This document shows, one piece after another, positions 43,701-45,170 of a stretch of 52,476 bases of DNA. The translations under genes were made by a program, and so were the position numbers. The notes beneath the pieces were generated by a model. The model made no database searches. It was not told where the DNA came from and saw nothing but the letters and a program-made list of their open reading frames with translations. The DNA comes from an uncultured Flavobacteriaceae bacterium (GTDB taxonomy: Bacteria > Bacteroidota > Bacteroidia > Flavobacteriales > Flavobacteriaceae). Positions within the stretch are counted from its first letter, which is position 1. The number at the start of each line of letters is the position of its first letter. The stretch spans positions 1-52,476 of the forward strand of contig CAJPUS010000066.1 of NCBI GenBank assembly GCA_905380995.1. Direction: 5' to 3'.

Positions 43701-43777
<77 letters not shown>

Positions 43778-43865: not shown

Positions 43866-44354
43866 TTAATTAAGACTTTCAGCATAAATTGTTGCTTCTT
43901 CAATGATAGCAGCAGGATCAACATAGCATGTAGTGCTTACAATTTTGTCGTCTTCCCACACCCATCTACAGTGACATGGATAACTATATTCTTTACCTGT
44001 TAAAATTGATGTAGCAGACCAATCAAAATCATGGAATGTCTCTACAGTTCCATCAGTAAATGTTGCAGTGTAAACTTCTCTGTCATTATGTTTAATATCT
44101 TTAAAAATCAACGAATGAGAGTTATAACCGTCAATAATTCCATCAACGTCAAATTCTAAATTATTAAAGTAATGTTTACCATCGGGAGTAAAATAATCTC
44201 TTGCCATATCAAAGTTACCTGCTAAATATGAATCAGCAAGGTTAACAATAATCTCAGATTTTTCATCATCATCTTGAATGAAACCTTTAAAACTTTCGTT
44301 AAGGTTACAGGATGTTAGGCTAAATGTTGTTAAAAGTATCAGTATTTTTTTCAT
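43866..44354 (-). CDS. small lipoprotein (hypothetical, possibly NTF2/SnoaL-like)
   Basis: 162 aa with the lipobox LTSC. The fold guess is weak. Confidence 0.65.
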   Translation of the reverse strand: MKKILILLTTFSLTSCNLNESFKGFIQDDDEKSEIIVNLADSYLAGNFDMARDYFTPDGKHYFNNLEFDVDGIIDGYNSHSLIFKDIKHNDREVYTATFTDGTVETFHDFDWSATSILTGKEYSYPCHCRWVWEDDKIVSTTCYVDPAAIIEEATIYAESLN

Positions 44355-44600
44355 TTTTTTATGTAAATGTTATTAATAAAGTTAAAAATTTATAATAAAA
44401 AAGCTGTTTTAAAAAATGAAATCGATAAAATCGCTCTACTAACGTAGTAATTTACATTTTAAGTTTATTATAATTAGTTAAATAATATTTTACATATTAT
44501 TCAAAAATTTTAATTTATAGATATATTAAATTACTATATTATTAAATATTATACCTTTTTTTTATCAAATTAGCAAAATTTTTATTAAATTTAAACAATT

Positions 44601-44655
44601 TCCCGTGTGGACTGGGATTAAAAATATAGTCGCGGGTGGAGAGAACGCATCCGGA
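44601..44655 (+). ncRNA. candidate structured 5' leader / RNA switch upstream of the YRGV mini-ORF
   Basis: This is the only non-tRNA G+C-rich island in any intergenic spacer of the window. It can form two mutually exclusive hairpins that share CGGG 44633-36 (details in the findings). The strand assignment is assumed from the downstream ORF. Confidence 0.35.
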
Positions 44656-44669
44656 AAAATCGTTACAAT

Positions 44670-44879
44670 ATGTTTAATATAAATCTGAAATTTATGAAAT
44701 CTAATAAATCAAATTTTACTTACAGAGGTGTTAAATATAATCAAAATGATATTTCATCTTCTGATTCAAAACTTTCTAATGGAATTTATAGGGGAGTTAA
44801 GTTTAATGAAAGTTTAACTAAGAAAAATAATTCTGTTAAAAAGAAAGGTTCATATAGGGGTGTAGAAGTTTCTCTCTAA
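44670..44879 (+). CDS. YRGV-repeat mini-protein (DUF4278-like?)
   Basis: 69-aa ORF with an alternative in-frame ATG at 44694. YRGV occurs at residues 18, 40 and 62, encoded with different synonymous codons. A strong terminator follows 16 nt after the stop. Confidence 0.55.
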   Translation: MFNINLKFMKSNKSNFTYRGVKYNQNDISSSDSKLSNGIYRGVKFNESLTKKNNSVKKKGSYRGVEVSL

Positions 44880-44894
44880 TAAAAATATGATACC

Positions 44895-44930
44895 AAAAAA
44901 AAAGGCTTTAATCGAAAGCCTTTTTTTGTT
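44895..44930. terminator. bidirectional rho-independent terminator
   Basis: Stem AAAGGCTTT(44901-09)/AAAGCCTTT(44915-23) with loop AATCG. It is flanked by an A-run upstream and a T-run downstream. It can serve both the mini-ORF (+) and tRNA-Pro(TGG) (-). Confidence 0.75.
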
Positions 44931-45095
44931 TGGGTTGAATGTGTTTTTACTCACATGATCTTTCCTAAAAAACTAAATTACCTAAGTATAAAAAGGATTT
45001 TTATAATATCTAAGTTTTTTCTAGTCTAAATGAGGTACAATGTTAACCAAATTAAAAAATATTAATAGATTTCAATTAATTGTTTTATAATTATG

Positions 45096-45170
45096 TCGGG
45101 GTGGCAGGATTCGAACCTGCGACCTCCGCGTCCCAAACGCGGCGCGATAACCGGGCTACGCTACACCCCG
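45096..45170 (-). tRNA. tRNA-Pro (anticodon TGG), CCA not encoded
   Basis: Hand-folded 75-nt cloverleaf. The acceptor is CGGGGTG/CACCCCG and the anticodon arm is CCGCG-TT TGG GA-CGCGG. The variable loop is AGGTC and the T arm is GCAGG-TTCGAAT-CCTGC. The discriminator is A. Confidence 0.95.

What the first reader, a model, noticed from the sequence alone, without database searches (positions are those of the whole stretch)
44601..44669. Isolated G+C-rich element with two mutually exclusive hairpins in the leader of the YRGV mini-ORF: candidate RNA switch
**Location.** The 315-bp spacer 44355-44669 is almost pure A/T except for one island: TCCCGTGTGGACTGGGATTAAAAATATAGTCGCGGGTGGAGAGAACGCATCCGG (44601-44654). 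It ends 15 nt before the ATG at 44670.

**Hand folding.**
- Helix A pairs CCCG 44602-05 with CGGG 44633-36, stacked on GACU 44610-13 paired with AGUC 44628-31. Its apical loop is 14 nt.
- Helix B pairs CGGGUG 44633-38 with CAUCCG 44648-53 (one G-U) with a 9-nt loop.
- A and B compete for the same CGGG.
- The apical loop of helix A carries GGAU (44615-18), complementary to AUCC (44649-52). A pseudoknot is therefore an alternative to helix B.

**Interpretation.** No T-tract follows, and no co-oriented gene lies upstream, so this is not a terminator. A TAAATTTA near-match to the -7 box sits just upstream (44586-93), which would put the element at the very 5' end of a transcript. I cannot place it in any riboswitch class by eye. 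Alternative-pairing architecture upstream of a tiny repeat-peptide ORF is what cis-acting sensors look like.
Basis: partly seen in the sequence, partly recalled or inferred. Interest (0 to 1): 0.7.

Follow-up and report, generated by a model that had tools for sequence, protein, structure and literature searches.

The report
Undescribed double-pseudoknot leader RNA family
The G+C island is one copy of a highly conserved ~70-nt RNA leader, absent from Rfam 15, that sits in front of many tiny genes in marine Flavobacteria, folds into pseudoknots, and probably switches their translation, possibly in response to glutamine.

Summary
The island is real.

No Rfam 15 family matches it. The same scans do detect glutamine-I riboswitches in control loci.

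Covariation supports an H-type pseudoknot:
- CCC 44602-04 pairs with GGG 44614-16.
- GACU 44610-13 pairs with AGUC 44628-31.

His CCCG:CGGG partner choice has no covariation support, and his GGAU:AUCC pseudoknot is wrong.

A second pseudoknot is likely but unproven. It would combine GGGUG:CAUCC with loop GAACG pairing to the invariant CGUU(N)C at 44661-66.

That CGUU strand continues into CAUAnGUUUAA. In most family members this stretch pairs with the start codon of a small downstream ORF, which is the layout of a translational switch.

Downstream ORFs fall into classes:
- YRG/DUF4278 (IF17-like) peptides, as in this window.
- Three other small-protein families that match no Pfam model.

Distant DUF4278 genes in phage and other marine contigs carry canonical glutamine riboswitches. 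Their ligand pocket is built on the same CGUUC/GAACG helix.

Best reading: a new riboswitch-like leader class. The effector is untested; glutamine is the best guess.

The parts
44586..44593 (+). Bacteroidota-type -7 promoter box (TAAATTTA). It predicts a transcription start at about 44599-44601, the first base of the fold.
   Evidence: TAnnTTT[GA] ends 6-10 nt upstream of CCGUGU in 68 of 111 distinct family upstream sequences. The TSS itself is inferred, not measured.
44601..44604 (+). S1 5' strand (UCCC) of pseudoknot 1.
   Evidence: Covaries with 44614-17. x3-y3 is paired in 97 of 97 sequences (CG 75, UG 12, AU 8, UA 2). x4-y4 is paired in 82 of 97 (UA 41, AU 30, GC 9).
44605..44609 (+). Loop L1 (GUGUG), nearly invariant. 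44609 covaries with 44653.
   Evidence: Alignment A4. Highest mutual information: GG 78, AA 17, AU 9. By locus type: GG 16, AA 6, AU 2, with 2 exceptions.
44610..44613 (+). S2 5' strand (GACU) of pseudoknot 1. It lies inside the S1 loop.
   Evidence: Pairs with 44628-31. G10:C31 reads GC 94, AU 11, GU 1, with none unpaired.
44614..44617 (+). S1 3' strand (GGGA).
44618..44627 (+). Loop L3, A-rich. The first bases vary and A.AAUA. is conserved.
   Evidence: Alignment A4.
44628..44631 (+). S2 3' strand (AGUC).
44634..44638 (+). Helix B 5' strand (GGGUG). This is the proposed stem 1 of pseudoknot 2.
   Evidence: Invariant in the protein-found relatives L001-L030. Fixed by the search pattern in the metagenome set, so no covariation test was possible. 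The hairpin alone scores -5.6 kcal/mol.
44639..44647 (+). Helix B loop GAGA-GAACG. GAACG 44643-47 is the proposed partner of CGUU(N)C. 44642 (A or U) covaries with 44665.
   Evidence: The 42/65 combinations are AA 79, UG 18, AU 6 and UA 3, and never AG or UU. UG occurs in 4 separate locus types.
44648..44652 (+). Helix B 3' strand (CAUCC).
   Evidence: As for 44634-38.
44653..44660 (+). 8-nt A-rich linker. Its sequence varies but its length is fixed.
   Evidence: Alignment A4. The only length variant is a frameshifted low-coverage contig, L005.
44661..44666 (+). CGUU(N)C. Proposed 3' strand of pseudoknot 2 and also the 5' end of the start-codon-sequestering helix.
   Evidence: It was not part of the search pattern, yet it is invariant in 105 of 106 sequences. 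It pairs with codons 2-3 (AGCGA, AGUGA or GACG) in many locus types.
44666..44677 (+). Anti-start strand CA(A)UAUGUUUAA. It includes the in-frame upstream ATG at 44670.
   Evidence: Family consensus is CAUAnGUUUAA, and the AUG is not conserved (AUAAG, AUAGG). It pairs with the start-codon region: P = 0.57 against 0.21 in controls, p = 7e-9.
44694..44696 (+). ATG that corresponds to the family-wide start of the small ORF (+40 to +45 after CAUCC).
   Evidence: In the window it is predicted to pair locally with UAU 44678-80 (P 0.68) rather than with CGUU (P 0.03).
44670..44879 (+). Small ORF with three YRGV repeats. 69 aa from ATG 44670, or 61 aa from ATG 44694. It belongs to DUF4278, the family of the cyanobacterial glutamine-synthetase inactivating factor IF17.
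   Evidence: Pfam PF14105, E 9.3e-9, 36 bits against a cut-off of 25.3. The link between IF17 and DUF4278 is from PMC6212724.
44897..44927 (+). Intrinsic terminator that closes the ~330-nt transcription unit.
   Evidence: 13-bp stem followed by a U-run. One found against 0.1 expected.

Best explanation
**What it is.** Bases 44601-44677 are one member of an uncatalogued family of 5'-leader RNAs of marine Flavobacteriia/Bacteroidota. Each copy heads a short, self-contained unit: promoter, leader, small ORF, terminator.

**The fold.** The first ~66 nt form an aptamer-like domain of two tandem H-type pseudoknots.
- PK1 is S1 (UCCC:GGGA) plus S2 (GACU:AGUC). Covariation shows it.
- PK2 is helix B (GGGUG:CAUCC), with its loop GAACG pairing to CGUU(N)C eight bases downstream. 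It is inferred from invariance, a fixed linker length and the 44642/44665 covariation.

**The switch (inferred).** CGUU(N)C continues into CAUAnGUUUAA. That stretch can instead pair with the start codon and first codons of the small ORF.
- When PK2 forms, CGUU is withdrawn from the sequestering helix, the AUG is exposed and translation goes ON.
- When PK2 is open, the AUG is masked.

**The effector (inferred).** PK2 is probably stabilised by a small molecule. My best guess is L-glutamine, at about 0.25-0.3. That would make this the flavobacterial counterpart of the cyanobacterial glutamine-II ('Downstream-peptide') riboswitch.

**Status of each step.**
- Shown: family membership, conservation, PK1, strand, and complementarity to the start region.
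- Inferred: PK2, the direction of switching, and the effector.
For: **Family and conservation.**
- The island is about 95-100% conserved, while the protein falls to ~50% identity and the flanks diverge.
- The covariance model finds exactly one copy per locus.

**Structure.**
- S1 and S2 covary. The covariation score is 0.101 against 0.045 +/- 0.004 in shuffles (0 of 500 reach it), and slid controls score 0.049 or less.
- CGUU.C lay outside the search pattern, yet it is invariant in 105 of 106 sequences.
- The 8-nt linker keeps its length.
- 44642/44665 combinations are only A-A or canonical pairs.

**Expression platform.**
- The start codon is predicted to pair with UCGUUNCAUAUG in 38 of 68 distinct leaders. 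Mean P is 0.57 against 0.21 with a shuffled 5' strand (p = 7e-9).
- The hairpins are seen across YRG and NQGH locus types.
- The double-pseudoknot nested core (-10.0 kcal/mol) and the alternative nested fold (-10.8 kcal/mol) are nearly isoenergetic.

**Context.**
- Units are promoter, leader, small ORF, terminator.
- 25 of 117 copies precede YRG/DUF4278 ORFs.

**Glutamine link.**
- All 9 canonical glutamine-I aptamers in hand precede DUF4278 ORFs.
- The two known glutamine riboswitch classes share one pocket. It is built on the helix CGUUC/GAACG plus a terminal G-C pair, and ligand binding stabilises that helix (PMC6698751).
- Here the same helix sequence, followed by the same C (GAACGC), is the switching helix.
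- The Downstream-peptide motif likewise heads heterogeneous 17-100-aa ORFs, with only the 5' UTR conserved (PMC2864571).
Against: - The metagenome set was collected with CGGGTGGAGNGAACGCATCC. Helix B and GAACG therefore cannot vary, and PK2 has no compensatory support. Only one suggestive pair (42/65) exists, and its commonest state is an A-A mismatch.
- In the window itself ATG 44694 is predicted to pair locally, not with CGUU (P 0.03), because position 44665 is A. An in-frame ATG at 44670 sits 3 nt after PK2, so the logic in this clade is unclear.
- Most family members precede ORFs that are not DUF4278, and neighbouring genes show no nitrogen theme.
- No Rfam glutamine model scores, even at E <= 10.
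- The CGUUC strand is 3' rather than 5' of GAACG, so the groove strand has opposite polarity to that in glutamine-I and -II.
- PK1 has no counterpart in either glutamine class.
- The 10-nt similarity GAGAGAACGC versus GAAGGAACGC alone has p of about 0.05 (my estimate).
- There are no transcript or ligand data.
Confidence: 0.6

Rival explanations
1. The leader is a binding site for a protein or the ribosome, not a metabolite sensor. It could be a regulon-wide operator for an RNA-binding regulator, an autoregulatory target of the basic YRG peptides, or a 5'-terminal stabiliser or translation enhancer for Shine-Dalgarno-less flavobacterial mRNAs.
For: - The same leader precedes at least five unrelated small-ORF families, as expected for a regulon.
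- The fold starts at the predicted 5' end, which is typical of stabilisers.
- Extreme sequence invariance of loops also occurs in protein-binding RNAs.
- No known aptamer matches.
Against: - A 66-nt double pseudoknot with invariant loops, joined to a variable start-codon-sequestering platform, is the classic riboswitch layout.
- A simple stabiliser would not need about 50 invariant bases.
- No candidate protein gene is linked to the leader.
Confidence: 0.2
2. Two mutually exclusive hairpins, A (CCCG:CGGG plus GACU:AGUC) and B (CGGGUG:CAUCCG), compete for CGGG, with a GGAU:AUCC loop pseudoknot as an alternative.
For: - RNAalifold's nested consensus is helix A plus a shifted hairpin UGGA:UCCN.
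- CCG:CGG stays pairable in all sequences.
- Helix A plus B' scores -10.8 kcal/mol, close to the pseudoknot core.
- Helix A may therefore be a real alternative state.
Against: - The variable C02 covaries with G16, not G36. There are 0 breaks against 9.
- GGAU:AUCC is not conserved.
- C33:G53 is unpaired in 26 of 106 sequences.
- The model ignores the invariant CGUU.C and the start-codon helix.
Confidence: 0.07
3. The conserved domain is the functional 5' module of a family of small RNAs, either trans-acting or dual-function. The short ORFs are secondary or incidental.
For: - Four loci (L059, L070, L104, L110) have the motif followed directly by an intrinsic terminator and no ORF.
- L089 and L147 also lack an ORF.
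- All units are only 200-330 nt long.
Against: - About 90% of copies are followed by an ORF at a fixed distance (+40 to +50). The coding signature is clear: synonymous variation and Pfam DUF4278 hits.
- The conserved 3' strand is complementary to each unit's own start region, which points to cis action.
Confidence: 0.08
4. It is a DNA-level feature (operator, recombination site, gene remnant) or a chance G+C island with no RNA function.
For: - Single-sequence folding is no better than chance.
- A 19+10-nt match lies inside a phage ORF.
Against: - There are more than 100 conserved copies.
- Compensatory changes that include G-U pairs work only on the + strand RNA.
- The distance to the promoter box and the ORF is fixed.
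- The phage match lacks the 5' half and is about what chance predicts for a 19-mer in that database.
Confidence: 0.02

Closest known systems
Glutamine-II riboswitch (Downstream-peptide motif, RF01704) of marine picocyanobacteria
   Same: - A ~60-70-nt pseudoknotted 5' leader close to the start of short transcripts (yfr6-like).
- Present in many copies.
- Followed by heterogeneous 17-100-aa ORFs that include DUF4278/IF17-like proteins, with only the 5' UTR conserved (PMC2864571, PMC6212724).
- The key helix is CGUUC paired with GAACG inside a hairpin loop, stacked on that hairpin's stem.
- Ligand-stabilised formation of this helix is proposed to free the initiation region, giving an ON switch (PMC6698751).
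   Different: - No Rfam hit.
- The CGUUC strand lies 3' of the hairpin, not at the 5' end, and carries a bulged N.
- The linking strand CGC with its G triple is absent. At best it is replaced by GAGN with opposite polarity.
- An extra 5' pseudoknot (PK1) has no counterpart.
- The host is Bacteroidota. The glutamine classes were reported as confined to cyanobacteria, apart from metagenomic and phage copies (PMC6212724).
- Ligand untested.
Glutamine-I riboswitch (glnA RNA, RF01739)
   Same: - The 3' segment GAGAGAACGCAUC resembles the Rfam consensus GAAGGAACGCAuc.
- The helix CGUUC/GAACG is followed by C, the base that forms the terminal long-range G-C pair.
- It is found upstream of DUF4278 ORFs: 9 of 9 loci in hand.
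   Different: - Glutamine-I is a three-way junction with an E-loop and no pseudoknot. The strand order is permuted here, and there is no P3.
- The control loci L018 and L019 score 50.5 and 43.4 bits, whereas flavobacterial loci score nothing.
H-type pseudoknot riboswitches in general (preQ1-I/II, SAM-II/V, guanidine-III)
   Same: - Compact H-type pseudoknots with A-rich third loops.
- The ligand stabilises a pseudoknot stem whose 3' strand overlaps the expression platform.
   Different: - No sequence or covariance-model similarity to any of them.
- Here two pseudoknots occur in tandem.
- The gene set (small ORFs) is unrelated to queuosine, SAM or guanidine metabolism.

Membership tests
Any Rfam 15 family (4227 models) | Covariance-model score at or above the family's gathering threshold | tested here: not met
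   - Whole window: only two tRNAs.
- 606-nt and 116-nt scans at E <= 10: nothing credible on the element. The best is GP20-a at 14.2 bits against a threshold of 47.2.
- 22 family loci at gathering threshold: none.
- L068 at E <= 10: none.
Glutamine-I riboswitch (RF01739) | CM score of at least 35 bits | tested here: not met
   No hit at E <= 10. The positive controls L018 (50.5 bits) and L019 (43.4 bits) are detected by the same tool.
Glutamine-I riboswitch (RF01739) | Three-way junction: P1 (5' CGUUC / 3' GAACG) enclosing two hairpins and an E-loop (GGAAGUA / GAAG) | tested here: not met
   CGUU.C lies 3' of GAACG. There is no P3 hairpin or E-loop sequence. The 5' half is a covarying pseudoknot.
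Glutamine-I and -II riboswitches | Ligand pocket: pairs C1:G and G2:C of the CGUUC/GAACG helix, a terminal long-range G-C pair, and a G base triple in the major groove | tested here: inconclusive
   - The helix sequence is present and invariant: GAACG 44643-47 and CGUU.C 44661-66.
- G38:C48 could serve as the terminal pair.
- A groove G (G39 or G41) is available but with opposite strand polarity.
- No 3D or binding data.
Glutamine-II riboswitch (RF01704) | CM score at or above the gathering threshold. Pseudoknot between the 5'-terminal CGUUC and the GGAACG in the P2 loop, with a P1 hairpin and CGC linker between them. | tested here: not met
   No CM hit. The topology is mirrored, with the pseudoknot strand 3' of the hairpin.
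Glutamine riboswitches | Selective binding of L-glutamine | not testable with these tools
   Needs in-line probing or ITC.
Glutamine riboswitches | Association with DUF4278/IF17-like or nitrogen-metabolism genes | tested here: inconclusive
   - The window ORF and 25 of 117 family copies are DUF4278-like.
- A GS gene lies 1.3 kb away in one clade.
- Most copies precede other small ORFs, and neighbours show no nitrogen theme.
DUF4278 (PF14105), for the downstream ORF | Pfam score at or above 25.3 bits | tested here: met
   36 bits, E 9.3e-9. Two- and three-repeat relatives score 30.2 and 40.5 bits.
Riboswitch (generic) | Conserved structured aptamer with covarying stems, plus a variable expression platform that overlaps it | tested here: met
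   S1 and S2 covary. The CGUU.CAU strand is shared between the conserved domain and start-codon hairpins of variable sequence.
Riboswitch (generic) | Direct ligand binding that changes gene expression | not testable with these tools

The most novel reading that the evidence does not exclude
This is a third structural class of glutamine riboswitch, and the first found in heterotrophic Bacteroidota. It rebuilds the CGUUC/GAACG glutamine pocket on a mirrored, double-pseudoknot scaffold. It switches on a multi-copy regulon of tiny proteins in abundant marine Flavobacteriia. That regulon includes IF17-like candidate glutamine-synthetase inhibitors and at least three unknown peptide families.
Probability: 0.25. 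Interest if true: 0.9.

Novelty: new variant of a known kind. Interest (0 to 1): 0.75.

Why it matters
- **A new RNA family.** It would add a widespread structured RNA family to a phylum where few riboswitch-like elements and almost no small-protein regulation are known. These are abundant ocean heterotrophs.
- **A small-protein regulon.** The leader marks a co-regulated set of tiny genes that gene callers largely miss. They include YRG/DUF4278, 'NQGH', 'KTRTIE' and a mini-lipoprotein. The leader also gives a handle for finding more of them.
- **If the effector is glutamine.** The same ligand pocket would then have been built on three different scaffolds. IF17-type post-translational control of glutamine synthetase, thought to be a cyanobacterial speciality, would extend to Bacteroidota.
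- **Testability.** A 70-nt RNA and one amino acid are enough for a direct test.

Tried and rejected
- **Rfam scans.** Gathering and E <= 10 thresholds on the window, on short sub-windows and on 22 family loci all returned nothing.
- **Single-sequence folding.** Uninformative.
- **Protein-guided search of GTDB genomes.** Only 3 loci, all close relatives.
- **IMG/VR scan for the core 19-mer.** One hit inside a phage ORF, judged to be chance. The family is therefore absent from IMG/VR.
- **CM search for diverged second copies.** In the window and 100 loci (622 kb) there was exactly one copy per locus. I found no pattern-independent variants to test helix B.
- **Neighbour-gene enrichment.** 241 flanking proteins form 134 clusters that reflect only synteny. 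Window neighbours are RelA/SpoT, GSDH, Cu/Zn SOD and LysR, with no nitrogen genes.
- **Pairing CGUGU 44604-08 with GAACG as a non-permuted glnA-like P1.** Rejected, because C04 is in the covarying S1 and the pairing needs a G-A mismatch.
- **44609:44653 as a Watson-Crick pair.** Rejected. It is mostly G-G or A-A, so at most a tertiary contact.
- **T-box-like and anti-SD readings of GGGUGGAG.** Considered from memory and dropped for lack of any supporting feature.
- **Literature searches.** Searches for the sequence strings, for 'glutamine-III', and for Flavobacteria riboswitch candidates gave no prior description.
Full report
**1. The observation**

The sequence is as described. A 315-bp spacer that is almost pure A/T separates a minus-strand SnoaL-like lipoprotein gene (43866-44354) from an ATG at 44670. 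One G+C island lies at 44601-44654. In 60-nt windows its G+C is 0.35-0.43, against 0.07-0.20 around it.

The downstream ORF (69 aa, three YRGV repeats) is a Pfam DUF4278 protein: 36 bits against a cut-off of 25.3. A strong intrinsic terminator follows at 44897-44927. tRNA-Pro genes flank the unit.

On its own the sequence folds no better than shuffles, with z = -0.05. The case therefore rests on comparison. The window corresponds to contig PBFZ01000001.1 of assembly GCA_002720015.1.

**2. Conservation**

The closest protein relatives (80-87% identity; metagenome contigs and two uncultured Bacteroidetes single-cell genomes) keep the island base for base. Meanwhile the A/T flanks and the apical loop drift.

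Three further clades have proteins only about 45-52% identical and unalignable flanks. They still keep about 95% of the island. The RNA is more conserved than the protein it precedes. These sets were found through the protein, so this result does not depend on any RNA pattern.

**3. A large family**

- 117 are true copies in A+T-rich contigs.
- 3 are G+C-rich chance hits.

A covariance model built from 106 distinct sequences (A4, R1) finds one copy in the window (104.6 bits). It also finds exactly one in each of 100 loci.

Rfam 15 has nothing like it. I scanned at gathering and at E <= 10, on the window, on a 116-nt sub-window and on 22 family loci. The same tool finds glutamine-I riboswitches in control loci. 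Text searches for the sequence strings, and for a third glutamine riboswitch class, found no prior description.

**4. Structure**

It covaries with GGG 44614-16.
- The third pair reads CG 77, UG 14, AU 8, UA 6 and GC 1 in alignment A4, with no unpaired case. With manual anchoring it is paired in 97 of 97 sequences.
- The fourth pair, counted with that manual anchoring, reads UA 41, AU 30 and GC 9.
- The helix is 3-6 bp long. In the window it is UCCC:GGGA.

GACU 44610-13 lies in the loop of that hairpin and pairs with AGUC 44628-31. The closing pair is GC 94, AU 11 and GU 1, with none unpaired.

Together these make an H-type pseudoknot (PK1) with an invariant loop GUGU(G) and an A-rich third loop. 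The whole-structure covariation score is 0.101 against 0.045 +/- 0.004 in shuffles (0 of 500 reach it). Slid controls reach at most 0.049. The G-U pairs place the RNA on the + strand.

CCG:CGG remains pairable everywhere. RNAalifold's nested consensus is in fact his helix A plus a shifted hairpin UGGA:UCCN. That nested fold scores -10.8 kcal/mol, and the nested core of the pseudoknot model scores -10.0 kcal/mol. Helix A may therefore be an alternative state, but nothing tests this.

*Pseudoknot 2 (inferred).* The 3' half is GCGGGUGGAG-N-GAACGCAUCC, then an 8-nt linker, then CGUU-N-C. I propose that GGGUG:CAUCC closes a loop whose GAACG pairs with CGUU.C (PK2). The evidence is indirect:
- CGUU.C was outside my search pattern, yet it is invariant in 105 of 106 sequences.
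- The A-rich linker varies in sequence but not in length.
- Position 44642 (the N before GAACG) and 44665 (the N inside CGUU.C) occur only as A-A, U-G, A-U or U-A, and never as A-G or U-U. U-G arises in four different locus types.

Position 44609 at the end of the PK1 loop also covaries with 44653 (G-G, A-A or A-U). This hints at a contact between the two halves.

The caveat is plain. Helix B and GAACG were fixed by the pattern, so compensatory change could not be seen.

**5. What follows the fold**

The family consensus continues as CGUU-N-CAUAnGUUUAA. The ATG at 44670 is part of this conserved RNA. It reads AUAUG, AUAAG or AUAGG in different members. A small ORF then starts 40-50 nt after CAUCC, which corresponds to ATG 44694 in the window.

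Among the 117 metagenome copies the ORFs fall into these classes:

| Class | Copies |
|---|---|
| 'M.DE.LMALEPNQGH..' peptides, 22-47 aa | 39 |
| 'MKYYNKTRTIE..', 40-44 aa | 31 |
| YRG peptides with 1-3 repeats (DUF4278) | 25 |
| 'MKDDKTQTQLL', 60 aa | 6 |
| ~50-aa lipoproteins | 4 |
| No clear ORF | 10 |
| Contig too short to classify | 2 |

Four of the ten without a clear ORF have the motif followed directly by a terminator.

Units end in intrinsic terminators soon after the ORF. Flanking genes are unrelated between locus types.

A TAnnTTT[GA] box ends 6-10 nt upstream of CCGUGU in 68 of 111 distinct upstream sequences. This puts the predicted 5' end at the first base of S1.

**6. Expression platform**

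I folded the stretch from UCGUU to 15 nt past the start codon. In most locus types it gives a hairpin with two features:
- CAU (44666-68 equivalent) pairs with the AUG.
- UCGUU pairs with codons 2-3 (AGCGA, AGUGA or GACG, which encode the recurrent MSD/MSE/MD N-termini).

Over 68 distinct leaders, the start codon pairs with the first 12 nt with mean probability 0.57. With that strand shuffled the mean is 0.21 (Wilcoxon p = 7e-9). P exceeds 0.5 in 38 of 68 leaders and in none of the controls. The sequences are related, but the pattern recurs across locus types.

CGUU therefore has two partners, the loop GAACG or the start region. That is the layout of a translational switch in which PK2 formation exposes the AUG.

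In the window the picture is weaker. With A at 44665 the AUG at 44694 is predicted to pair locally with UAU 44678-80 (P 0.68) and not with CGUU (P 0.03). Its nearest relatives have U there and form GUUUCA:UGAAAU.

In the YRG classes the upstream AUG also opens a 9-codon uORF that ends on the main AUG, or is fused in frame as in the window. I cannot say how this interacts with the switch.

**7. Comparison with known systems**

DUF4278 is the family of IF17, the cyanobacterial glutamine-synthetase inactivating factor. Glutamine-I (glnA) and glutamine-II (Downstream-peptide) riboswitches are mainly found upstream of DUF4278 genes. They act as ON switches (PMC6212724).

The Downstream-peptide motif heads 17-100-aa ORFs of no known family, in many copies, with only the 5' UTR conserved (PMC2864571). 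The arrangement here is the same.

Distant homologues of the window protein (54-55 aa; a T4-like phage contig and other marine contigs) carry canonical glutamine-I aptamers. All nine such aptamers in hand are followed 59-61 nt later by a YRG ORF. So the gene family that elsewhere has a glutamine riboswitch has this new leader instead in Flavobacteriia. This is an indirect argument for the same ligand.

Structurally, both glutamine classes build an almost identical pocket (PMC6698751). It rests on the helix C1-G, G2-C, U3-A, U4-A, C5-G (CGUUC/GAACG), closed by a long-range G-C pair, with a G triple in the major groove. Ligand binding stabilises that helix.

The new leader shares these features:
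- The same helix sequence, followed by the same C (GAACGC).
- A stacked G38:C48 pair.
- A G-rich strand (GAGN) that must cross the groove.
- The use of exactly this helix as the switching element.

It differs in these ways:
- The strand order is mirrored, with CGUU.C on the 3' side.
- There is a bulged N.
- PK1 has no counterpart.
- No glutamine model scores at all.

It therefore works like a glutamine-II riboswitch on paper. It is not a member of either family by any test I could run.

**8. Verdict**

My confidence by claim:

| Claim | Confidence |
|---|---|
| Genuine, uncatalogued structured RNA family | > 0.9 |
| Cis-regulatory switch acting through the CGUU strand | about 0.6 |
| Effector is glutamine | about 0.25-0.3 |

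The main weakness is that the large sequence set was collected with a pattern that freezes the 3' half. No expression or binding data exist.

Noticed in passing
window 43703-43777 (-) and 45095-45170 (-): Two tRNA-Pro genes (anticodons GGG and UGG) bracket the small DUF4278 transcription unit. A tRNA also lies about 400 nt upstream of the motif in L010.
   Followed up: no
L006 1983-2013 (IMGVR_UViG_3300032313_000013): A G+C-rich phage contig shares 19 nt plus a further 10 nt (GGGTGGAGAGAACGCATCC..AAAATCGTTA) with the element. The match lies inside a 371-aa ORF and lacks the 5' pseudoknot. The 19-mer is about what chance predicts. The extra 10-mer is odd, but I treated it as coincidence.
   Followed up: partly
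L018 1434-1552, L019 877-1014, L031-L037: Canonical glutamine-I riboswitches with a 66-80-nt insertion in P3 sit 59-61 nt upstream of 35-55-aa YRG/DUF4278 ORFs. They occur in T4-like phage contigs (gp32 and gp59 neighbours) and in a SecDF-adjacent bacterial contig. This extends the riboswitch-DUF4278 pairing beyond cyanobacterial genomes.
   Followed up: partly
L010 3938-4945, also L011 and L013: In one flavobacterial clade a 335-aa glutamine synthetase gene (Gln-synt_N plus Gln-synt_C) lies about 1.3 kb downstream of the DUF4278 unit, on the opposite strand.
   Followed up: no
L068 3170-3215; L042, L051, L071, L155 (variants in L091, L154): A second conserved G+C-rich block, GGGGGCGUUUUUCCUCUCUCGACGAAGUCGCCACGCGC, lies between the stop codon of the small ORF and the terminator. 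It follows both YRG and NQGH ORFs and has no Rfam match.
   Followed up: partly
L041, L046, L055, L085 and others (+42 to +50 after the motif): Several families of tiny ORFs share this leader and match no Pfam model: 'M.DE.LMALEPNQGHLQAL' (22-47 aa), 'MKYYNKTRTIEQKV' (40-44 aa), 'MKDDKTQTQLL' (60 aa), and a ~50-aa lipoprotein ending in NLPPDVGSNKYSKKR. Many are below usual gene-calling length.
   Followed up: partly
window 44670-44696; L010, L039, L080: In the YRG classes the AUG inside the conserved CAUAUG opens a 9-codon uORF (MFDFNKLDV*, MFKFININI*). Its stop overlaps the main AUG (AUGA), or the uORF is fused in frame (window: MFNINLKF-MKSNKS). In L002 the second Met is Ile, so the upstream AUG must be used there.
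   Followed up: partly
L059, L070, L104, L110: In these copies the motif is followed within 10 nt by a strong intrinsic terminator (GCCACUGUUCGCAGUGGCUUUUUUU) and no ORF. They could be stand-alone ~100-nt RNAs or decayed units.
   Followed up: no
window 44605-44609 with 44646-44650: The invariant loop GUGU(G) is also complementary to CGCAU, and this pairing appears in the single-sequence MFE. The U08-to-C variant would keep pairing with G47. This is a possible third conformer that I did not test.
   Followed up: no
window 44605-44682 (+): A 25-codon GTG ORF (MWTGIKNIVAGGENASGKIVTICLI) overlaps the element. It is not preserved in the family and is spurious.
   Followed up: yes
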